Shown: positions 41,258 to 54,213 of the stretch, piece after piece | How the letters are laid out: each line of letters begins with the position of its first letter | Numbering within the stretch: the first letter of the stretch is position 1 | Assembly: GCA_963514005.1 (NCBI GenBank) | Contig: OY740794.1 | Span: 46,872,001-46,936,000, forward strand | DNA from: Raja brachyura | Taxonomy: Eukaryota | DNA length: 64,000 nucleotides | Direction of reading: 5' to 3' | The notes under the pieces: generated by a model | What the model was told of the DNA's origin: nothing | Database searches by the model: none | The model's input: only the letters and a program-made list of their open reading frames with translations | Made by a program: the position numbers and the translations under genes

Positions 41258-41327
41258 ATGGGCGATGCAAAGGAGAACTTTTTTTCTTTGATCCTGGCTA
41301 CTGTGGTTCTGACCATGTACTTACCCG
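41258..41327 (+). CDS. Actinodin-like protein, first coding exon (signal peptide)
   Basis: TTTTCCACAG acceptor at 41228, AACATGG start, MGDAKENFFSLILATVVLTMYLP with a hydrophobic core, GTGAGT donor (phase 1). Confidence 0.8.
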
Positions 41328-41655
41328 GTGAGTGGAATTATTTTGACTACTATTAATATTTTATAAGAGGTTTTCTTCTCGTTTAATAGTACACATATGC
41401 ACTCCACCTGGCTGACTATCTAAATAAAAAGCCTATTTTCATGCCATTTGATTCTTGTTAAATCAGAAAAATATATAGTATTGACATGTAAACATTAATG
41501 ATATACAATATTTGGTCAGTTTTATCTAACATTACTATAATACTATTTGCTGAACATGTATTCCATGCTATGCAAAGATGTCAAACCAAAGTAATCTCTG
41601 ATATATTCCAGATTTTGCCTCTGTTTTTGCTTTACTAATCATGATCCTATCTCTA

Positions 41656-41783
41656 NNNNNNNNNNNNNNNNNNNNNNNNNNNNNNNNNNNNNNNNNNNNN
41701 NNNNNNNNNNNNNNNNNNNNNNNNNNNNNNNNNNNNNNNNNNNNNNNNNNNNNNNNNNNNNNNNNNNNNNNNNNNNNNNNNNN
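41656..41783. other. Assembly gap (N run) within an intron
   Basis: 128 N characters. Confidence 0.99.
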
Positions 41784-43323
41784 AATGCATCCATCAGCAC
41801 AAAACACCAAACTATTTCCACTTAATTACTAGGTATAAATAAAGTTGTCTGCTTTTTAACATGGAATGGCAGAGAAAGGCACCATTTAACTTTTCAAGTC
41901 TGAACAAGCAGTCTAAAACTGCTGCCCAATTAAATCTAGTATCCAACTATTTCCATCAGTTCCTTCCTATCTCTCATTTACTGCCAACAAGGAACTTAAT
42001 GTGAGATGAGGGTTTCCTCATGTCGGCTGACAATATTTAGCTCAATGTATAGGAAGGAACTGCAGATGCTGGTTTAAACCGGATAGACACAAAAAACTGG
42101 AGTAACTCAGCGGGCCAAGCAGCAACTCTCGAGAAAAGAAATAGGTGATGTTTCGGGTAGAGACATTTCCAACATTTAGCTCAAGCTCATTATTAATGTC
42201 TCCACTCACTTTAAATTGACTACTTTTTAAACATTCAGCACTGGATGAAATTTCCTTCAGCCAAGCACGGGGAAGACTGATTTCATTATCTTCAGTGCCT
42301 ACAACAGACCACATTCCTTAAGCAGTGACGCTATCTTTTTCCTTGGTATTCATCTGAAACTGAGCCAGACTTTCTGGTTCGATTTCAGTTGAATACCAAG
42401 GAGAGTAAACCAGACATATTTAACCTCATGCCACAAGTAAAGTTGCCTAATTCCACCATCATGTCACTGTTAGATTGCACCACACATTCATGCCTGTAAC
42501 CTTGTGGTGTGACCATTCCAATGCACATCTAGCCAGCCTCTCTCATTCTATAAAACTTCCACACCCGCTCCTCTTGGATCAGCTAGAAGGAGGGCCCCAA
42601 GAAAAGAACAGTTTTCATACTAACAATTTTATTTTCCCTATCCTTTTTGTCAGGAAATAAAAAGAAGAAATGTTGTTTTTACGGTAACTTTCCTCAAAAA
42701 AGTAGTTGTTAAACGGCATCATTATGGAAACATATTATGTGGGTGGAATTGTTAAAATTCCATGTTAAAAAGCAGACAACTTTATTATGTGGGTGGAATT
42801 ATGTCCTGTCACACCAAATGTGGGTACAGTGTTTTACGTCACTACAATTAACGCTAAAATTAAGTTATGTGAAATGCATTTTGCACAAGATTCAACAGAA
42901 TAAACATTTGGGAGCAAAAGACGTAAAATTATACAAGAGCACTTCAAACGTTTCTTGCTCTACAATTCATACAATTCATTGAATTGTTCAATTATATTTT
43001 GTCAAAGTCAAAGTAAACTTTATTGACAATTCAAGTAATGCAACAAGTAGTTACACAGAGGATTGAAATTGTGTTTCCCCATACTCCAAATGTGCAAGTA
43101 ATATTTATTTATAACACAGACAGACAACAGACCATATACCATTTTGCAAACAATATATGTTTGATTGCACTGAATACTATGGTAGTTGTTCTGGAGGCAA
43201 TTTGATTTTGCAGTTTTAGAAGCATACCAGCCATAATATTATTAAGGAATATTCTGCAATTTATCCATAACCTGATCAAAATAAAATATTCTGAAAGATG
43301 AATTACATTCCTTTATAACCATA

Positions 43324-43657
43324 TAACCATATAACCATATAACAATTACAGCACGGAAACAGGCCTTCTCGGCCCTTCCAGTCCGTGCCGACCATTTATT
43401 TTCCCCTAGTCCCATCTACCTGCACTCAGACCATACCCCTGCATTCCCTTCCCATCCATATACCTATCCACTTTACTTTTAAATGTTAAAATCGATCCTG
43501 CCTCCACCACTTCTGCAGGAAGATCATTCCACACAGCCACCACTCTCTGAATAAAGAAGTTCCCCCTCATGTTACCCCTAAACTTCTGTCTCTTAATTCT
43601 CATGTCATGCCCTCTTGTTTGAATCTTTCCTACCCTCAATGGGAAAAGCTTATCCAC
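43324..43657 (-). mobile_element. CR1-like LINE 3' fragment (second subfamily)
   Basis: QTRGHDMRIK..NFFIQRVVAVWNDLP, with a (TATGGTTA)n tail. Confidence 0.85.
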
Positions 43658-44942
43658 TGCATATTATAAGCTTATAACTGTATATTATAAGCTTATAACT
43701 GTAAAATTTCTACAAAGAACATTGTAATATTAATAGCCAATTATGTATTTTATTTGTAAATCATTTTTCCACCATGTCTCTTATTCCCCAGTGCGTAACA
43801 GCAACAAGTAAAAGATTATTTGGTTAGGAAAATGCTATTTATTATACAAATGCAGAATGTATTAAACAATGGATTGTGATTTAATCGAGCTGTTGAGATA
43901 ACCTTGTTAAGTCAGAAACTTTCTTACAGTTTGGCTTTCTTCCCAACCAATTGTTCAAGCGCTTTTGATTGCAACATTCATCTTAATTTAGTTCAACATA
44001 GAAACTGACAAGTTACTAAAGAACAGTTAGCAATGATACGAACCAATCTCTAGAACTAAATTAAAACATTTAATTTCATTCTTTGAGTCTTTCTTGGGAT
44101 GTGTGTGGGGTGGAGGGTGTCTTCCTAAACTGTTGTAGTTCAAGTGGGTGAATTTACTCCCACCTTGTTGTTAGGTACTGAATATAAGAAGCAACAGAAT
44201 ACTATGTGCTCGTGGAGTCTATTCAATAAAATAACGGCTAGCCCTGAGATTCAATTTTATTCTCCTCCCTGATCCCAAAATCTCTCGATTTCTATTATAT
44301 TCTAAAATCTTTCACTCAGCCTTGAATCAAATCACCCACCAGCTGACCATCCAGAACCATTATGTGTATAGATGCTAAATGATTTGCAACTCTGATTGAA
44401 TATATATCCTCACATCTAAATCACAAATGCCTGCTCTTCTATTATTTTAATCCATTGACTCCTTCATGCACTGTGCTATTTAACCATTTTACAAAACTCA
44501 ACATTTCCAAGAAATAAAATCATTATAGTTGTGACAGGAAATCTGCAAATTATTAAAGCCAAATCAAATCAAAATGAAGCTGCTGTTATCATAGGTAGGG
44601 TTTTCATAAAACATTATTTACTACTCAGCAAACGTTTTAACTAGTATGAGGAGTAAGCATGTAAAATTATTTACTAAATTTCTATAATGCTTCAAGCAAA
44701 TTAGATTAGCTTTGTAGTTTCAGGTTTGGGTTTCCATTAGGTCACATTAACAGCCTGCTCCTGCTGATAGAATTTTGCAAGTAAAGTGTTTGAAGATCAC
44801 ACCAGTAAAATATCACCTGTGGCACTGGGACATGAGGAGTTCACTGTGTTTACAGAACAGCCTATTTAGCAGATAATGGCTTTGGCCCTGTTCCTTCAGT
44901 CTGTCACATCTGCTTTGCTTACATTTTGTTGGTTTCTTTCAG

Positions 44943-44987
44943 ACATGCTGGAGGCTAACGTTCTTCGCCGGCTCTTGAAAAGGGATG
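44943..44987 (+). CDS. Actinodin-like protein, coding exon 2
   Basis: TTTCTTTCAG acceptor, (D)MLEANVLRRLLKRD, GTAAGT donor. Phase 1-1, compatible with the flanking exons. Confidence 0.8.
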
Positions 44988-46482
44988 GTAAGTAGCTCGC
45001 TGCATGTTAATGGAACACAGCAAAAGCATCCAAGTCATAAACAGTCACCAATCAGAGAAATCGTTGTTCTAAATTGAGCTAACCACTTGCATTACTTACA
45101 AGCAACTGACCCTGATAATGTAGACTCAAGGAACTGCAAATGCTGGTTTGCAAAAGAAGACACAAGATGCTAGAGTAACTCAGTGTGTCAGGCAGCATAT
45201 CAGGAGAACATGAATTGGCAATGTTTTGGGTCAGGATCCTTCTTCAGACTGATAACATTGTTAATATCTGGATTATTTGGTGTGTTAGTTAATCATACCA
45301 AGTAGAGTCATAGATTCATACAGTGTGGAAACAGGCCCTTCTGCCCAACTTGCCCACACCGACCAACATGTCCCATCTACACTAGTCCCACCTGCCTGTG
45401 TTTGGCCCATATCCATCTAAACCTGTCCTATCCATGTACCTGAAGTAGGTAGGTTTCATCAAAGTGTAAAGAATTGTCCTAACCAGAAACATCACCTATG
45501 CCTGACTCGCTGACTTACTCCAGCATTTTGTTTTTTTCTTTTGTAAATTAGCATTTGCAGTTTCTTGTTTCTACAGCATCAGTGGAGAACATGGATAGGT
45601 GATGTGTCAGGTTGGGACCCTTCTTCAGGCTGATAATGTAGCAGAATTCTGAATGCTTGGTGTTGGATTTCCTCACACCAAGTAGGTAGGTTTCAAGGTT
45701 TGATTCCCACTCTGTCATCAGTTAGCTGATCATTGCTAAACACATCTGTGAAGAGTGTAATCATTCTGCCTATACTCTGGGAGGGGAAACAATCTTAACC
45801 AGTCTTCCTGCTGTTGTTTGTTGATCACTAAAGTCTACAGGAAATAAATTTACAATGTTTCTTCCTCCCCCTGCCAGGCACTTCTCCCACTCAATGAAAG
45901 TAAAATAGCTCACTGGTACTCATTAACCTTAAACATCAAACACAACTACCCTAGACAAGGAAGCTGGAAAGATGTTGGTCCGGAGAGAACAAGTTTTGAT
46001 CCCAAGTTACAGTTCTCGGGGCTGGGTTGTGCCAGAGGAGATAGGGATGGGAGGGGGTGGAGGGGGGCGGGGGGGGGGGGGGGGGTGGAGGGAGAGTTGA
46101 TGAGGGTGCGCCACGATAATTTAAAGGAAAGGAGAGTCCTTTTAATGCTAGTTTGCCATTAAACTTATGTAATTTCCTTTGAAACCTATGTTGTCCTTTT
46201 TCCATTATAATCTTGGAAATGTTTTAGAGTAGAATTATTTTTACTATTTATGAAGTACATTTTTAAATAAGCCCCACTTAATATATATAAAGCTTGGTGA
46301 TTTGATGGTGTACATTGAATATTTGTAATTTAAAAAACACCTATCGTAAATGACACAGCAAGTAATGCTATTTTCATAATTTGTTTGTTTCTTGGCACAT
46401 TGCTCTTCCAAAGGTGCTTATTCTTTCTGTTGGATGGCATCATTAGTTCTCTGACACCTTTTTGATACCTCTCCTCCATTAG

Positions 46483-46533
46483 GCACACAGATCGTTACAG
46501 CGAGTACAAATGGCGAGATCATAGTCAAGCCTG
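46483..46533 (+). CDS. Candidate additional 51-nt exon of the actinodin-like gene
   Basis: Branch-like CTGAC, pyrimidine tract and TAG acceptor. Open in phase 1-1: (G)TQIVTASTNGEIIVKP. The donor GTCAAT is weak. Confidence 0.45.
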
Positions 46534-47909
46534 GTCAATCTTATCTTGCATCTATAAATGTATTATTATGTAAGCAGGGATTGCTGATTAATGAGCAGTA
46601 CAGGAATCAAGAACCAGAGGACATCGGTTTAGGGTGAGAGAGAAAGGTTTAATAGCAACCTGAGGGGCACATTTTTCACTGGTGGGTGTATGGAACGAAC
46701 TGCCAGAGGAGGTAGTTGAGGCAGGTACTATAACAATACTTAAAAGACATTTGGACAGGTACATAGATAGGAAAGGTTTAGAAGGATATGGGTCAAACAT
46801 AGGCAGGTAGTGTTGGAAGGAACTGCAGGTGGTGGTTTAAACCAAAGATAGACACAAAAAGCTGGAGTAACAGCGGGACAGGTAACATCTCAGGAGAGAA
46901 GGAATGCCATTTTGGGCATTCGGGTCGAGATCCTTCTTCACACTGTAGTACTAGTGTTGATGGGGCATCTTGGTCTGCATGGGAAAGCTGGGCTGCCAAA
47001 GTGCCAGTTACTGTGCTGCAAGAATCCATGACTCCAACAGCAATGTTAAACTTGGCTTTTTCTCCTCTTTGAACTTTTAGTTGTTAAATCTATCTAAGAA
47101 AACACTATAAATATTTAGCAGATCGACAAGGAAGAAATCTTAAAAGACATGTTGTAATTCTGAAATAAAACAGAAAAAGCCAGAAATACTCAGCAAATTA
47201 GTCCCCATGGTGAATAAAATGAAGATAATGCTTTTGTATCAAAGAGCACAAAATTACCAGATTGTTGTAAGAATTGGTTTACAGAGCTTTTTTACACAGA
47301 GCTAATTCATGCAGGCTACAACAATTTGTCGCTCAAAATCAAGCAACACTACTTTATTTTGAAAGAATACCTCAAATCTGCGTTCTCATGTGATGATATA
47401 TTTGGGTCAAATGAAATCTGTTTCACTACACATGAAGCATTGCAAAGATGTGGTCAGCAGTAGGACTTAAAATTATGTTACGGTCAGAAAATGATGTAAA
47501 ACTAATTAGGTATAGGATGGAACTGCAGATGGTGGTTTACACTGAAGATAGACACAAAATGCTGGAGTAACTCAGTGGGACAGGCAGCATCTCTGGATTG
47601 AAGGAATGGGGGAAGTTTCAGGTCGAGACCCTTTGTCAGACTAATTATAATGGTATTGAAAAGGGCCTATTCTTACATTTTAAAACTCATACTTTTGTGA
47701 TGTGATATTATTAAAATAACTTGAATTTATATTGAATTCCATCTTAATTTTAAATGTAATTATCACCAATTGAAATGTTTGCATGAAGCATAACATGGTG
47801 AAGAGGAAAAGTATGGAATTTACTTTCCTCAGAGCTAATGTTTCAGAAGTATGGTGGTGAAATGTAAAGCTTTAATTTCAGCTGTTTTCATTGTTTCTAT
47901 TTCCTGCAG

Positions 47910-48061
47910 TTGATGAAGACAAAATAGCTGTGGAGCCCAAAGAAGCAAACAATTTTTTAAGCAAATTGATACGCTCAAAACGGCATACAAAAAGGCATCA
48001 ATTTCCCCCTGATTTCTGGAAGGCATATCAGCATTTTTCTGACATAGGATTTGATGAAGGA
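47910..48061 (+). CDS. Actinodin-like protein, propeptide/conserved-domain exon
   Basis: TTTCCTGCAG acceptor, (V)DEDKIAVEPKEANNFLSKLIRSKRHTKRHQFPPDFWKAYQHFSDIGFDEG, GTAAGT donor (phase 0). Furin-type site RSKR. Confidence 0.9.
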
Positions 48062-48113
48062 GTAAGTATCTAATATTCTTGTGATAGAGGCATCGATATT
48101 TACTAACTATGAG

Positions 48114-48418
48114 GGCAGTACAGTGGTGCAGCGGTAGAGTTGCTGGCATAATGCGCCAGAGACCTGGGTTCGATCCTGACTCCAGGTGCTGTCTGTACAG
48201 GGTTTGTACTTTCTGCCTGTGACCGCATGTGTTTTCTCCGGGTGCTCCAGTTTCCTCCTACATTCCAAAGACGTACAGGTTTGTAGGTTAATTGGCTTCT
48301 ATAAATTGTAAATTTTCCCTAGTGTGTTGGATAGCGCTAATGTATAGGGTGATCACTGGTTGCCTCAGACTCAATGGGCAGAAGAGCCCGTTTCCATGCT
48401 GAATCTTTAAAGTCTAAA
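48114..48418 (+). mobile_element. HE1/V-SINE-like element
   Basis: GTGGTGCAGCGGTAGAG A-box, GGGTTCGATCC B-box and GTACAGGTTTGTAGGTTAATTGGC core. Confidence 0.75.
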
Positions 48419-48524
48419 GGAACTAAGAGGTGCACATGGCAATCTGCTAGTAATTGTTCATGAAAGAGGTAAGCCATTTAGGACTGAAATGATGAAAAAC
48501 GTTTTCACCCAGAGAGTTGTGGCA

Positions 48525-50335
48525 AAATTTTTCATCATCTCAGTCCTAAATGGCCTACCTCTTATTCTTAAACTGTGACCCATGTTTCTGGACTCCCCCA
48601 ACATCGGGAAAATGTTTCCTGCATCTAGCTTGTCCAAACCCTTAATAATTGTATATGTTTCGATAAGATCTCCTCTTATCCTTCTAAATTCCAGTGAATA
48701 TAAACCCAGTCAATCCATTCTTTCATCATATGTCAGTCCCGCCATCCCGGGAATTAACCTGGTGAACCTACGCTGCATTCCATCAATAGCAAGAATGTCC
48801 TTCCTCAAACTAGGAGACCAAACCTGCACACAATACTCCAGTTGCAATCTCACCAGGTCCCTGTACAACTGCAGTAGGACCACCTTGCTCCTATACTCAA
48901 ATCCTCTCACTATGAAGGCCAACATGCCATTTGCTTTCTTCACTGCCTGCTGTACCTGTATGCTTACTTTCAGTGACTGGTGTACAAGGACACTTAGGTC
49001 TCATTGTATCCCCCATTTTCCTAATCTGACACCATGCAGATAATAATCTGCCTTCTTGTTCTTGTCACCAAAGTGGATAACCTCATTATACTGCATCTGC
49101 CATGCATCTGCCCACTCACCCCATATATCCAAGTCACCCTGCAGCCTCATCGCATCCTCCTCGCAACTCACATTGCCACCCAATTTTGTGTCATCCGCAA
49201 ACTTGGAGATGTTACTTTTAATTCCTTTGTCTAAATCGTTAATATATATTGTAACTGTGGTCCCTACACTGAGCCTTGCTGCACGCTACAAGTCACAGTC
49301 TGCCATTCTGAAAAATATTTGTTAATTCCTACTCTCTACTTCCTGTCTGCCAACCAGTTCTCTATCCATGTCAATACCCCACCCCAATACCATGTTCTCT
49401 AATTTTGCACACTAATCTCTTGTGTGGGACCTTGTTATAGGGTTTTTGAAAGTCCAGATACACCACATCCACTGGTTCTCTCTTATCTATTCTACTTGTA
49501 ACATCCTCAAAAAATTCCAGATTAGTCAAGCATGATTTCCCCTTCTAATCATAAATCCATGCGGACTTTGACCGATCCTGTCACTGCCTTCCAAATGTGC
49601 TGCTATTATATCTTTACTAAATAACTCAAGCATCTTCCCCATTACTGTTGTCAGGCTAACTGGTGCATAATTCCGTGTGTTCTCTCTCTCTCCTTTCTTA
49701 AAAAGTGGGGTTACATTAGCTGCCCTCCAGTCCACAGGAACTGATCCAGAGTGTATAGAACATTGGAAAATGATCACCATTGCATCCACAAGTTCTAGGG
49801 CCACCTCCTTGAGTACTCTGGGATGCAGAACTTCAGGCCCTGGCGATTTATCTGCCTTCAGTCACAGCAGTTTACCTAACACCATTTCCTGACTAATGTG
49901 GATTTCCTTCAGTTCCTCCCTCACTCCAGTGACATGGTCCTCTAGTATTTTTTGGGAGATTCTTAGCGAAGACAGAACCAAAGTACTTGTTTAACTGGTC
50001 TGCCATTTCCTTGTTTCCCATTATAATTTTACCTGTTTCTGACTAAGGGATCTACATTTGTCTTCACTAATCCTTTCCTCTTCACACATCTAAAGAAGAT
50101 ATTACACTCAGTTTTATATTCCTCGCAAGCTTTCTTTCGTGCTCTATTTCCCCCCCCCCCCCCCCTCTTAATTAACCTCTTTGTCCTCCTCTGTTAAATT
50201 AACATAGAAACATAGAAATTAGGTGCAGGAGGAGGCCATTCGGCCCTTCGAGCCAGCACCGTCATTCATTGTGATCATGGCGAATTCTAAATTTCTCCCA
50301 GTCCTTCAGTTTACTGCTTTTTCTGGCCAATTTAT
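48525..50335 (-). mobile_element. CR1 LINE, degraded, in the last actinodin-like intron
   Basis: VPVDWRAANVTPLFKKG and KKANGMLAFI..LEYCVQVWSP in fragmented frames. Confidence 0.9.
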
Positions 50336-50421
50336 TAATATGCCTGTTCCTTGGATTTAACGCTTGGATTTAACATTGGATGTTATTATAACTGCTTCTG
50401 TTTGCCTCGTGTATTTTCCAG

Positions 50422-53400
50422 GTATATGAAATGGACAGAACGTATCTGCAATATATTCAGGCCAAGAATAGAGACGAGTCTGCCCAGTCGCATCAAGCAC
50501 TCCTGCAGCATCTACGGGAAGCGGAATGTGACACCACAAAAGACCCTGACTGTCAGCCAAGTGTTCTTCACAAACGTTTACTTGCCGCGCAGAGGGCATG
50601 CGATCCTTACAGAGATCCGCATTGCAGGACGGAAACTCCGCCGTGTGATCCAACCAAGGATCCATATTGCAGCCCCAGGGCACTCTCCTGTGATCCAAAG
50701 ACAGACCCCTATTGTAGAACGGACGCGTACGCTTGTGACCCCAGGACAGATCCTTACTGCAGAAGAGCAGCGGCATATTCCTGCGATCCCAAGACCGATC
50801 CCAATTGTAGAACGGCGGCAGCCCATTCCTGTGACCCAAAGATAGACCCCTACTGCAGAACAGAGTCATCCTCCTGTGATCCCAGGAGAGATCCATATTG
50901 CAGAGCAGAACCCTACCCGTGCGACCCACAAAAAGATCCCTTCTGCAGAGTAGCGGCACATGCATGTGATCCAAAGACGGATCCCTATTGCAGAACAGAG
51001 GCATACCCTTGTGATCCCCGGAGAGACCCGCATTGTAACGTTGAGCGCTGCGATCCATATCGGGACCCCAGCTGTAAAACTCAATTGCAACCATGTGACC
51101 CGCAGAAAGATCGCTATTGCATCCCGGAATTGCATTCTAGGCAGTTGGCACCATTCCCATGTGACCCGCGATACGACTCAGCGTGTAATCAGCAATCGTA
51201 CACTTATGCACAGTATGCCGAATTGGTGAACACCTACTGCAACCCCTACGACCCAGACAGCCCGCACTGCCAGGCGTTGGTTGCATACATCAAGCAGACG
51301 TGTGATTCGTACACGGATCCCAACTGCTTTCCAAGGTCAAAGCAGGAAGTGCATTCTGCACGCCCCGCCTGTGACCCTGCAAGGGATCCCTATTGCCGCT
51401 CTGCTGTGGCTGTGTCTAAAACACCATATGATTGTGACCCATACTATGACCGCAACTGCCATTCGGCATTCCACCCCAAGGACGAGCCTGCCCCAGACCC
51501 AGAGTGTGACCCCAGGTCTGGCCGTAGCTGTAATCCCGACAGACCGGAATATGGTGGTGACGACGAGCTTCGCTGTGATCCATATCATGATCCCAACTGT
51601 CGTCAAAATGTCAAATCCATTGACCGAGTTCGCAGGCCGCCAGCCTCATATAGAGGCCGGACCAAGGAAGGCTATCCCTGTGACCCCCACTATCATCCGG
51701 ACTGCTATCCCACCCGTCATTCCCAAACTGCCACTGCTTGTGACCCGTCCGATGATGACTGTCGTGGACATGAGGAAAATAATCATGTACCGGAACACGG
51801 CCGGAATTGTGACCCTACACGTGATCCTTATTGCGGTGAAACAGCAGCCACGGAGAACTGTGACCCATACACTGATCCCGAGTGTAACGCCCGATACCAG
51901 GCTAGGCAGCGACAAAGAGACTTAGAGAACTGTGACCCATACACTGACCCCGAGTGTAACGCCCGATACCAGGCTAGGGAACAACGAAGAGTGGATATGG
52001 AGAACTGTGATCCGTACACTGATCCCGAGTGCAGATCACAGTCCAGGGCTCGGGAACAGCACAGAGTGGACATGGAGAACTGTGACCCATACACTGACCC
52101 CGAGTGCAACGCCCGATATCAGGCTAGGGAACAACGAAGAGACTTAGAGAACTGTGACCCATACACAGATTCAGAGTGTTTTTCCCGATATCAAGCCAGG
52201 CTGCGACAAAGAGGGGACACAGAGAACTGTGATCCACGCACTGATCCCGAGTGCAGATCACAATCCAGGGCTCGGGAACAGCACAGAGACTTAGAGAACT
52301 GTGACCCATACACTGATCCCGAGTGTAACGCCCGATATCAGGCTAGGGAACAACGAAGAGACTTAGAGAACTGTGATCCACACACAGATCCAGAGTGTTT
52401 TTCCCGATACCAGGCCAGGCTCCGACAAAGAGGAAGCTCGGAGAACTGTGACCCATACACTGATCCCGAGTGCAGATCACAATCCAGGGCTAGGGAAGAG
52501 CAAAGAGTGGACATGGAGAACTGTGACCCGTACACTGATCCCGAGTGTTATTCCCGATACAGAGCTAGACAGGAACAGAGAGGATATTTGAAGAGCTGTG
52601 ATCCACGCACTGATCCCGAATGCAGATCACAATCCAGGGCTAGGGAAGAGCAAAGAGTGGACATGGAGAACTGTGACCCGTACACTGATCCCGAGTGTTA
52701 TTCCCGATACCAGGCTAGGGAACAACAAATACGAGATTCCGAGAACTGTGATCCATACACGGATCCCGAGTGTTATTCCCGGCACCAAGCTAGACAGCGA
52801 CAAAGAGAAGACACTGAAAACTGTGACCCATACACTGATCCGGAGTGTTATTCCCGATACCAGGCCAGGGAACAACAAAGAGTAGCCTCTGAGAATTGTG
52901 ATCCACGCACTGACCCCGAATGTAATTCCCAAACTCGGTCCAGAGAGCAGCAAAGAAAAGCCACTGAGATCTGTGACCCATACACTGATCCCGAGTGTTA
53001 TTACTCTCTATATTACGCCAGGGAAAAGCAGAGAGCTGGTGCCGAGAATTGTGACCCGTCCGCTGATCCTGAGTGTGAATCCCAATCCCGCACTAGGGAG
53101 CAAGAAAGAGGAACCACTGGGAACTGCGACCCTTCCGGGGATCCCGATTGTCAACTCAAAAGGCCTTCAAGAGAGCAAGAGGGAACAGCCCCTGAGAAAT
53201 GTGATCCCTACACTGATCCTGAGTGTTATTCCCGATCACATGCCAGGGAGGAAGAAAGAACAGCAGCGGAAAATTGTGATCCTAACACTAACCCTGCATG
53301 TAATTCCCAAACCCATAGCAAACAGCAAGAGAGAACGGACGTGGAAACTTGTGACCCGTACACTGATCCTGAGTGTTATTCCCGATCCCACGCTGGAGAG

Positions 53401-54213
53401 GAAGAAATAGCCCGTGAGAAGTGTGACCCATACACTGATCCTGAATGCTACTATTCTTTATACCGGGCTAGAGAGCAGGAAAGAACGACCACAGAAAACT
53501 GCAATCCTAATTTTGAATCAGATTGTGATGGATACGAGTCTGACGTTAACGAGCAATACCGGACAGCCGCAGAAGATTGTGACCCAAACTATGACCCAAA
53601 CTGCAACAACCGACCAACTAACTCAAATGAATCAAATCGCGATTGCCCATCTGACGTGGATCCTGATTGCAGCGGCACTCCTTCCCACAGCAGTGAGAAA
53701 ACAGACACCGAAGAATGTGACCCTTATGACCCCTACTGTGGTGGAGACGCAATGGATTATCATCCATCAGAGAAGGCCTGTGACCCTGACTACGACCGTG
53801 ACTGTGCCGCATCCCAGTCTCACGAGGACGACCAAGTGCACAAAGAAGACTGCGACCCGCTCTATGACTCCAGCTGCCACGATGAAGAGGAGGGTGTGTA
53901 TGAAACAGACTCTGACTGTGATCCCGACTATGATGTCGATTGCCACGTGCAGCCATTCGCCTTTAAGGATGAAGAGCTCGATTCCCAAGATACGGGACGC
54001 TATGAAATGATCTGTGATCCAGACCTTGAATACTCATGTCCTTTCGAGAATGATGCCAATGATGTGACAACATCTTACGATGACTATCACCCAGCATATA
54101 ACCCTTACAGTGCAGGGTATGATAAACTGTATCAAGGCGATCAGGAGACTGATGGAACTGAAAAGGAAGATGATTCCCAAGGAAATCCAAACGAATCTGA
54201 CGATAAAATTTAA
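50422..54213 (+). CDS. Actinodin-like (elastoidin-type) protein, terminal repeat exon
   Basis: TTTTCCAG acceptor at 50421, phase 0 (VYEMDRTYLQY..). Uninterrupted 1263 codons with about 53 C(D/N)PxxDPxC-type motifs, the signature repeat of fish actinodins. Paralogue identity (and1/and2/etc.) not determinable here. Confidence 0.9.
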   Translation, partial: VYEMDRTYLQYIQAKNRDESAQSHQALLQHLREAECDTTKDPDCQPSVLHKRLLAAQRACDPYRDPHCRTETPPCDPTKDPYCSPRALSCDPKTDPYCRTDAYACDPRTDPYCRRAAAYSCDPKTDPNCRTAAAHSCDPKIDPYCRTESSSCDPRRDPYCRAEPYPCDPQKDPFCRVAAHACDPKTDPYCRTEAYPCDPRRDPHCNVERCDPYRDPSCKTQLQPCDPQKDRYCIPELHSRQLAPFPCDPRYDSACNQQSYTYAQYAELVNTYCNPYDPDSPHCQALVAYIKQTCDSYTDPNCFPRSKQEVHSARPACDPARDPYCRSAVAVSKTPYDCDPYYDRNCHSAFHPKDEPAPDPECDPRSGRSCNPDRPEYGGDDELRCDPYHDPNCRQNVKSIDRVRRPPASYRGRTKEGYPCDPHYHPDCYPTRHSQTATACDPSDDDCRGHEENNHVPEHGRNCDPTRDPYCGETAATENCDPYTDPECNARYQARQRQRDLENCDPYTDPECNARYQAREQRRVDMENCDPYTDPECRSQSRAREQHRVDMENCDPYTDPECNARYQAREQRRDLENCDPYTDSECFSRYQARLRQRGDTENCDPRTDPECRSQSRAREQHRDLENCDPYTDPECNARYQAREQRRDLENCDPHTDPECFSRYQARLRQRGSSENCDPYTDPECRSQSRAREEQRVDMENCDPYTDPECYSRYRARQEQRGYLKSCDPRTDPECRSQSRAREEQRVDMENCDPYTDPECYSRYQAREQQIRDSENCDPYTDPECYSRHQARQRQREDTENCDPYTDPECYSRYQAREQQRVASENCDPRTDPECNSQTRSREQQRKATEICDPYTDPECYYSLYYAREKQRAGAENCDPSADPECESQSRTREQERGTTGNCDPSGDPDCQLKRPSREQEGTAPEKCDPYTDPECYSRSHAREEERTAAENCDPNTNPACNSQTHSKQQERTDVETCDPYTDPECYSRSHAGEEEIAREKCDPYTDPECYYSLYRAREQERTTTENCNPNFESDCDGYESDVNEQYRTAAEDCDPNYDPNCNNRPTNSNESNRDCPSDVDPDCSGTPSHSSEKTDTEECDPYDPYCGGDAMDYHPSEKACDPDYDRDCAASQSHEDDQVHKEDCDPLYDSSCHDEEEGVYETDSDCDPDYDVDCHVQPFAFKDEELDSQDTGRYEMICDPDLEYSCPFENDANDVTTSYDDYHPAYNPYSAGYDKLYQGDQETDGTEKEDDSQGNPNESDDKI
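51853..53499 (+). repeat. Coding minisatellite, about 22 units of 72-78 bp (ENCDPYTDPEC plus R/E/Q-rich spacer)
   Basis: Recurring GAGAACTGTGACCCATACACTGATCCCGAGTG, with all length variation in multiples of 3. Confidence 0.95.

What the first reader, a model, noticed from the sequence alone, without database searches (positions are those of the whole stretch)
41258..50460. Actinodin-like N-terminus looks like augurin/ECRG4 in sequence and intron positions
Seen: ANVLRRLLKRD / KIAVEPKEANNFLSKLIRSKR / PDFWKAYQHFSDIGFDEG, with introns after LP-G (phase 1), after KRD (phase 1) and after GFDEG (phase 0). Recalled human ECRG4: GNKLKLMLQKRE / [21 protein letters not shown] / PEVQQWYQQFLYMGFDEA, with introns, as I recall, at equivalent positions and phases. 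Inference: this gene is an augurin-family prohormone scaffold fused to a repeat exon. Actinodins would then have a surviving tetrapod relative and might release an augurin-like peptide.
Basis: partly seen in the sequence, partly recalled or inferred. Interest (0 to 1): 0.85.

Follow-up and report, generated by a model that had tools for sequence, protein, structure and literature searches.

The report
Actinodin, ECRG4, otospiralin: one family
The front end of this cartilaginous-fish fin-fibre gene (actinodin, described in 2026 as having no known relatives and lost in land vertebrates) matches the secreted protein ECRG4/augurin in sequence, intron layout and neighbouring genes and lies next to the inner-ear gene otospiralin, so the three are likely one ancient family with members surviving in mammals.

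Summary
Observation confirmed; homology inference supported and extended. The window holds a four-exon actinodin1/2 gene (1,352 aa, 35 strict repeats). Its exon 3 matches Pfam Augurin (26.8 bits, cut-off 27); six other actinodins pass the cut-off. Profile-profile actinodin vs ECRG4: 96%, above all shuffles, in both halves of the domain. This genome's own ECRG4 has the same intron phases (1,1,0) and the same 152-nt exon 3. New here: ECRG4 lies between NCK2 and one ST6GAL-type gene, actinodin between NCK1 and its closest paralogue, the pattern of a whole-genome-duplication pair. Otospiralin lies 43 kb upstream on the same strand and matches the mature helix pair (94%), so it is likely a second tetrapod relative. 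Corrections: the repeats sit inside the homologous last exon, not in a fused one; one conserved furin site would free only a short propeptide, not an augurin-like hormone. Against: an actinodin-only search of 1.84 billion proteins returned neither relative; the tree is unresolved; human introns and splicing were not tested. The link is latent in automatic Pfam labels, but I found no paper stating it.

The parts
41258..41327 (+). Actinodin1/2 coding exon 1: hydrophobic signal-peptide-like segment ending Leu-Pro, then a phase-1 intron
   Evidence: the own and3/4 exon 1 also ends Leu-Pro + phase 1; no signal-peptide predictor was run
44943..44987 (+). Exon 2 (45 nt, phase 1/1): first propeptide helix. 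Counterparts: ECRG4 48 nt, and3/4 42 nt, otospiralin 27 nt, all phase 1/1
47910..48061 (+). Exon 3 (152 nt, phase 1/0): second propeptide helix, furin motif, first mature aromatic helix ending at the conserved Gly. ECRG4 exon 3 is also 152 nt, phase 1/0
47972..47983 (+). R-S-K-R furin-type site (aa 60-63), equivalent to the site that splits ECRG4 into ecilin and argilin
   Evidence: 32 of 32 actinodins, 4 of 4 ECRG4; processing names from passages of PMC10088197
50422..50526 (+). Start of exon 4 (aa 90-124): long second mature helix, still within the region shared with ECRG4 exon 4 and otospiralin
50527..54213 (+). Rest of exon 4: cysteine repeat array (35 strict C[N/D]PxxDPxC, 43 by a looser pattern, 106 Cys in the whole protein), a second R-V-R-R site at aa 491, acidic tail and stop

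Best explanation
This is a cartilaginous-fish actinodin1/2 gene whose first three and a half exons are homologous to ECRG4/augurin, and it is likely ECRG4's sister copy from an early vertebrate whole-genome duplication, with the adjacent otospiralin likely a tandem member of the same family. Shown: four exons with intron phases 1,1,0 shared with this genome's ECRG4 and and3/4; profile similarity; NCK1-otospiralin-actinodin-ST6GAL on contig C14 versus NCK2-ECRG4-ST6GAL on C6. Inferred mechanism: the protein is secreted, furin cuts after R-S-K-R and removes a roughly 40-residue ecilin-like propeptide, and the predicted helix pair (homologous to the start of argilin and to mature otospiralin) stays attached to the disulphide-looped repeat array. 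There it most likely acts as a matrix-docking or self-association head that places the repeats on fin collagen fibres, not as a released hormone. The repeats expanded, or were lost in ECRG4, inside the shared last exon.
For: Pfam Augurin: exon 3 alone 26.8 bits, E 6.2e-6; cut-off passed by 1 of 17 and 5 of 60 retrieved proteins; 11 of 11 full-length and3/4-type proteins hit it at E<=0.041. HH-align (pairwise E): AND1/2-ECRG4 96%, 1.8e-9; bony-fish rows only 91.6%; AND3/4-ECRG4 96%; 0 of 60 shuffles reach any of these. Pre- and post-furin halves each beat 80 of 80 shuffles. A profile from 4 ECRG4 sequences ranks this exon 3 second, after ECRG4's own exon 3, among 22,614 ORFs (E 7.8e-6). Introns; 26 of 27 exon-3-only actinodin gene calls read on Val-Ser straight after the equivalent position, the translation of a phase-0 donor. 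Paralogon: the NCK2 exon's only other match at E<=1e-10 is C14:46.605 Mb (68%); the C6 sialyltransferase exon's best non-self match of 12 is C14:47.139 Mb (73%, next 58%); NCK and the family gene share a strand at both loci; glypican pairs and SoxB genes also pair C6 with C14. Otospiralin: same strand, 43 kb upstream; phase-1/1 exon 2; 12 of 17 actinodins hit PF15182 weakly (E 0.006-0.09); post-furin AND-OTOS 93.8%, 0 of 80 shuffles; the ESM Atlas top three look-alikes of ECRG4 outside its own family are otospiralin clusters (0.82-0.84, lead level only). AlphaFold gives the same five-helix order in an and3/4 protein and ECRG4.
Against: An actinodin-only profile against 1.84 billion representatives returned 61 hits, none recognisable as ECRG4 or otospiralin. 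The window's exon 3 misses the Augurin cut-off by 0.2 bit. OTOS-ECRG4 direct HH-align is not significant (0.5% and 1.1%; 14 of 60 and 11 of 80 shuffles reach it), and otospiralin lacks intron 3, the propeptide helix and the R-x-[KR]-R site (0 of 11). My ECRG4 alignment holds only 4 chondrichthyan sequences. ECRG4 exon 1 was not located, so its intron-1 phase comes from the exon-2 frame. The ST6GAL gene's orientation relative to the family gene differs between the two loci. The four-group tree is unresolved (p-AU 0.44-0.54). The ECRG4 model is low-confidence (pLDDT 52.5). Cleavage and docking were not tested.
Confidence: 0.75

Rival explanations
1. Same homology, but actinodin is processed to release a free argilin-like signalling peptide in the fin fold.
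For: The furin site and the mature helix pair are conserved; the window's protein has a Lys-Arg pair early in the repeat region and R-V-R-R at aa 491; 12 of 20 and1/2 proteins have a dibasic pair within 90 aa downstream of the first mature helix, in 11 of them an Arg-Arg at one position.
Against: 0 of 32 actinodins have a second R-x-[KR]-R within 90 aa; the downstream dibasic pairs are absent from sturgeon, bichir and bamboo-shark and1/2 and from 10 of 12 and3/4; the conserved Arg-Arg falls in the stretch that is one long helix in the and3/4 model.
Confidence: 0.12
2. The likeness is convergent: a generic signal peptide, amphipathic propeptide and R-x-K-R motif shared by many secreted proproteins, with the intron match and location coincidental.
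For: No ECRG4 or OTOS in the database-wide actinodin profile search; short alignments (30-60 columns); the pre-furin motif recalls other propeptides (recalled, untested).
Against: The post-furin half alone matches (87.8%, 0 of 80 shuffles); signal peptides were excluded from the ECRG4 and actinodin profiles; three introns match, with an identical 152-nt exon; a gene landing by chance in the 0.53-Mb NCK1-ST6GAL interval of a 2,700-Mb genome has odds of about 2 in 10,000 (my arithmetic).
Confidence: 0.05
3. ECRG4 and actinodin are homologous, but otospiralin is an unrelated neighbour whose aromatic helix resembles them by chance.
For: No direct OTOS-ECRG4 profile match; no Pfam OTOS hit near its cut-off (best 16.9 of 27 bits); different exon count in the mature part.
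Against: Post-furin AND-OTOS 93.8%, pairwise E 1.8e-7; adjacency on the same strand; shared phase-1/1 small exon 2 with an Ala-Asn-Val-x-Arg run in both genes of this genome; Atlas features link ECRG4 to OTOS without my choosing it.
Confidence: 0.15

Closest known systems
Actinodin and1/2 (teleost, sturgeon, bichir, lungfish, shark)
   Same: Best relatives of exon 4 are named actinodin1; C[N/D]PxxDPxC repeats; conserved N-terminal domain; it is a member.
   Different: Much longer: 1,352 aa and 35 strict repeats, against 11 repeats in the partial lungfish transcript (PMC4764851, passages) and 497 aa in bamboo shark; keeps the propeptide helix that most teleost and1/2 have eroded, which is why the ECRG4 likeness is visible here.
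ECRG4 / augurin (Pfam PF15187)
   Same: Propeptide helices, R-x-K-R site, aromatic helix-Gly-helix, intron phases 1,1,0, 152-nt exon 3, position downstream of an NCK gene on the same strand.
   Different: Not the orthologue (true ECRG4 is on C6 beside NCK2); ECRG4 has a short Tyr/His/Asp tail in place of a 1,200-aa cysteine repeat array.
Otospiralin (Pfam PF15182)
   Same: Adjacent gene on the same strand; phase-1/1 small exon 2; mature Asp-Phe-Trp helix, Gly, second helix; Lys-Arg before the mature part in 6 of 11 sequences (the chondrichthyan ones).
   Different: About 100 aa, no propeptide helix, no R-x-[KR]-R, no phase-0 intron, no repeats; no direct profile match to ECRG4.
Actinodin and3/4 (this genome, C50:1.734-1.751 Mb, minus strand)
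   Same: Same four-exon plan and phases; HH-align 99% to and1/2; equally similar to ECRG4.
   Different: 339 aa with 1 repeat by the loose pattern; I could not place C50 in the paralogon.

Membership tests
Actinodin and1/2 | C(N/D)PXXDPXC repeats | tested here: met
   35 strict copies; motif as defined in PMC4764851
Actinodin and1/2 | Closest relatives are and1/2, not and3/4 | tested here: met
   (named actinodin1 hits); a separate and3/4 gene exists on C50; AND1/2 monophyly not rejected, p-AU 0.50
Actinodin and1/2 | Expression in fin fold and presence in ceratotrichia/actinotrichia | not testable with these tools
   no RNA evidence obtained
Augurin homology group (PF15187) | Score at or above the Pfam cut-off of 27 bits | tested here: inconclusive
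   exon-3 ORF alone 26.8 bits; the spliced protein was not scanned; its shark orthologue P0001 scores 33.2
Augurin homology group (PF15187) | Intron positions and phases 1,1,0 | tested here: met
   own-genome ECRG4: exon 2 phase 1/1, exon 3 152 nt phase 1/0; exon 1 not found; the human gene is four-exon per PMC4287990 passages, its phases not tested
Augurin homology group (PF15187) | Furin-type site between propeptide and mature part | tested here: met
   R-S-K-R aa 60-63; 32 of 32 actinodins, 4 of 4 ECRG4
ECRG4 orthologue | Located beside NCK2; short precursor without repeats | tested here: not met
   true ECRG4 is at C6:72.36 Mb; this gene is beside NCK1 and has a repeat array
ECRG4-like peptide-hormone precursor | Release of a short mature peptide | tested here: not met
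   by sequence only: no second R-x-[KR]-R within 90 aa in 0 of 32 actinodins; actual processing is not testable here
Otospiralin family (PF15182) | Score at or above the Pfam cut-off | tested here: not met
   no OTOS hit for the window's exons; best relative 16.9 bits
Ohnologue pair with ECRG4 | Flanked by reciprocal paralogues on paralogous chromosomes | tested here: met
   NCK1/NCK2, ST6GAL-type pair, glypican and SoxB pairs on C6 and C14; one genome only
Ohnologue pair with ECRG4 | Rooted tree dating the split to the vertebrate genome duplications | tested here: inconclusive
   no outgroup found; three groupings not distinguished

The most novel reading that the evidence does not exclude
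Actinodins, ECRG4 and otospiralin are one vertebrate family of secreted connective-tissue proteins built on a furin-unmasked helical hairpin that binds collagenous matrix; ECRG4 is a repeat-less ohnologue of actinodin, so tetrapods lost only the repeat-bearing members, and the two mammalian orphans work through the same matrix-binding head that builds fin fibres.
Probability: 0.35. Interest if true: 0.88.

Novelty: new variant of a known kind. Interest (0 to 1): 0.74.

Why it matters
[quoted passage not shown] Placing it with ECRG4 and otospiralin gives it an origin (an older secreted gene, doubled with the genome, with repeats added inside the last exon), a domain map (propeptide, furin site, helical head, repeats) that can be tested by deletion in zebrafish, and two mammalian relatives whose own mechanisms are poorly defined. 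Otospiralin is reported in catshark chondrocytes (PMC13188829, passages) and in zebrafish skeletal matrix (PMC3946537, passages), which fits a shared matrix role. The link is partly latent in databases: automatic Pfam labels already mark 22-23% of Actinodin3/4 cluster members and the bamboo-shark protein as Augurin, which tempers the novelty; the paralogon and otospiralin links go beyond that.

Full report
The gene. Reading the region and splicing at GT-AG sites gives four coding exons on the + strand: 41258-41327, 44943-44987, 47910-48061 and 50422-54213, with intron phases 1, 1 and 0 and a 1,352-aa product. It has 35 strict C[N/D]PxxDPxC repeats (43 by a looser pattern). The first 200 residues of exon 4 retrieve 17 proteins, most named actinodin1, the best a bamboo-shark protein that already carries an automatic Augurin label. 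The host is a cartilaginous fish, probably a ray or skate (inferred from 87-90% identity of its otospiralin to batoid proteins). A separate and3/4 gene lies on contig C50 with the same exon plan, so the window gene is and1/2. The and1/2 and and3/4 labels on unnamed database proteins are my assignment by similarity.

Sequence homology with ECRG4. The exon-3 ORF hits only Pfam Augurin, at 26.8 bits against a cut-off of 27 (E 6.2e-6). Among retrieved relatives 1 of 17 and 5 of 60 pass the cut-off; 5 of 17 and 19 of 60 hit at E<=0.1, including 11 of 11 full-length and3/4-type proteins. With signal peptides removed, HH-align gives AND1/2-ECRG4 96.3% (pairwise E 1.8e-9, 52 columns), bony-fish AND1/2 alone 91.6%, and AND3/4-ECRG4 96.1%; reversed templates score 9-13 and none of 60 column shuffles comes near. 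To exclude a generic propeptide likeness I split the domain at the furin site; both halves match independently (post-furin 87.8% for all actinodins pooled, pre-furin 66-88%; 0 of 80 shuffles each). Against this, a profile of nine actinodin N-termini run over 1.84 billion representatives did not return ECRG4 at E<=0.001: the likeness is significant at the scale of a family library or a genome, not of that database. My ECRG4 alignment is shallow (4 chondrichthyan sequences); the Pfam model is the independent, broader test.

Gene structure. This genome has a true ECRG4 on C6. Its exon 2 is 48 nt, phase 1/1; its exon 3 is 152 nt, phase 1/0, the same length as in the window gene and ending at the aligned residue four positions after the conserved Gly. 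Exon 1 was not found. In the representative set, 26 of 27 exon-3-only actinodin gene calls continue Val-Ser right after that position, as a phase-0 donor reads, so the intron is general in actinodins. Human introns were not tested; PMC4287990 (passages) gives four exons. The last exon begins inside the shared domain, so the repeats are an expansion (or, in ECRG4, a loss) within a homologous exon rather than an exon fusion.

Paralogon. On C6, minus strand, an NCK exon (72.409 Mb; SH3 domains) precedes ECRG4 (72.36 Mb), with a sialyltransferase exon at 72.209 Mb. That NCK exon has one other strong match in the genome, C14:46.605 Mb, + strand, and the sialyltransferase exon's best non-self match is C14:47.139 Mb (73%, next 58%). 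The window gene (46.913 Mb, +) lies between them. The names NCK1/NCK2, ST6GAL1/2 and ADIPOQ are recalled from human gene order, not returned by a call. Glypican pairs and SoxB genes also occur on both contigs. A chance landing in that 0.53-Mb interval is about 2 in 10,000. This is the pattern expected of whole-genome-duplication sisters; the ST6GAL orientation differs between loci, implying a local inversion. It rests on one genome.

Otospiralin. Twelve of 17 actinodins hit Pfam OTOS weakly at the mature helix. The genome's only otospiralin above cut-off ends 43 kb upstream of the actinodin start codon on the same strand; profile scans of 394 kb of C14 found no other family member, though small exons of unrelated genes between the two were not excluded. 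It has phase-1/1 introns around a 27-nt exon 2 but no third intron. HH-align: 74% (and1/2), 66% (and3/4), and 93.8% for pooled post-furin actinodins; none directly to ECRG4. The Atlas, asked for ECRG4 look-alikes outside its family, returned three otospiralin clusters first (0.82-0.84, below its 0.9 bar). A supplement table of PMC13188829 lists Otos in lamprey, mouse and turkey and a second gnathostome paralogue, so the tandem pair may predate the genome duplications. The four-group tree cannot order the splits. I put otospiralin's membership at about 0.8 and ECRG4's at about 0.93.

How it likely works. R-x-[KR]-R sits 13-19 residues before the aromatic helix motif in 32 of 32 actinodins and 4 of 4 ECRG4; none has a second such site in the next 90 residues. 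AlphaFold models give five helices in the same order for an and3/4 protein (pLDDT about 90 over the two mature helices) and ECRG4 (low confidence); no solved structure matches. In ECRG4 terms (PMC10088197, passages) cleavage would free an ecilin-like propeptide and leave an argilin-like head on the repeats. Since and1/and2 loss abolishes actinotrichia and reorients collagen (PMC13120675 and PMC13573005, passages), I infer the head is a docking or assembly module. Cleavage, binding and expression are untested.

What is known. [quoted passage not shown] Searches listed no paper linking the families; the library lacks most subscription journals. PMC6497306, PMC10416458, PMC11612004 and PMC3946537 were seen as term passages only. 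Automatic Pfam labels already carry the Augurin link for a fifth of Actinodin3/4 cluster members. Earlier scan findings: none.

Verdict. The gene is an ordinary though very long actinodin1/2. The statement that actinodin genes were lost in tetrapods stands; the statement that they have no relatives does not. Interest 0.74.

Noticed in passing
G000:C6:72.359-72.369 Mb (L002, L007, L008): This genome's ECRG4 has an in-frame stop 14 codons into exon 4 where related sharks and rays read through, a 1,290-aa LINE-like ORF in intron 3, and no exon 1 that I could find: truncated gene, pseudogene or assembly error.
   Followed up: partly
G000:C14:46.936-46.941 Mb (L030), just past the window's end, minus strand: Collagen plus C1q gene, adiponectin-like by recall, tail to tail with actinodin.
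   Followed up: partly
G000:C50:1.734-1.751 Mb (L043, L054-L056): and3/4 gene on a small repeat-rich contig; 339 aa with a Pro/Tyr/Asn-rich tail and 1 repeat; chromosome of origin unplaced.
   Followed up: partly
window 47912-47983: The helix before the furin site recalls the propeptides of vitamin-K-dependent proteins such as UCMA (from memory, untested); no Pfam scan here returned such a family.
   Followed up: no
window 51852-53407: The middle of the repeat array is a recent 75-bp (25-aa) tandem expansion with higher-order 150 and 225-bp periods, absent at this length in bamboo shark; may vary between species or be affected by assembly.
   Followed up: no
window about 54060-54120: Near the C-terminus a Tyr-Asp-Asp-Tyr run resembles the last residues of ECRG4; bony-fish and1 proteins end with a similar Asp-Tyr. 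Probably compositional; not tested.
   Followed up: no
G000 whole-genome family searches: The p53-family search found loci on only two contigs (C14, C33) and the SoxB search loci on three (C6, C13, C14); a third p53-family gene was not seen, which may be a search or assembly limit.
   Followed up: no
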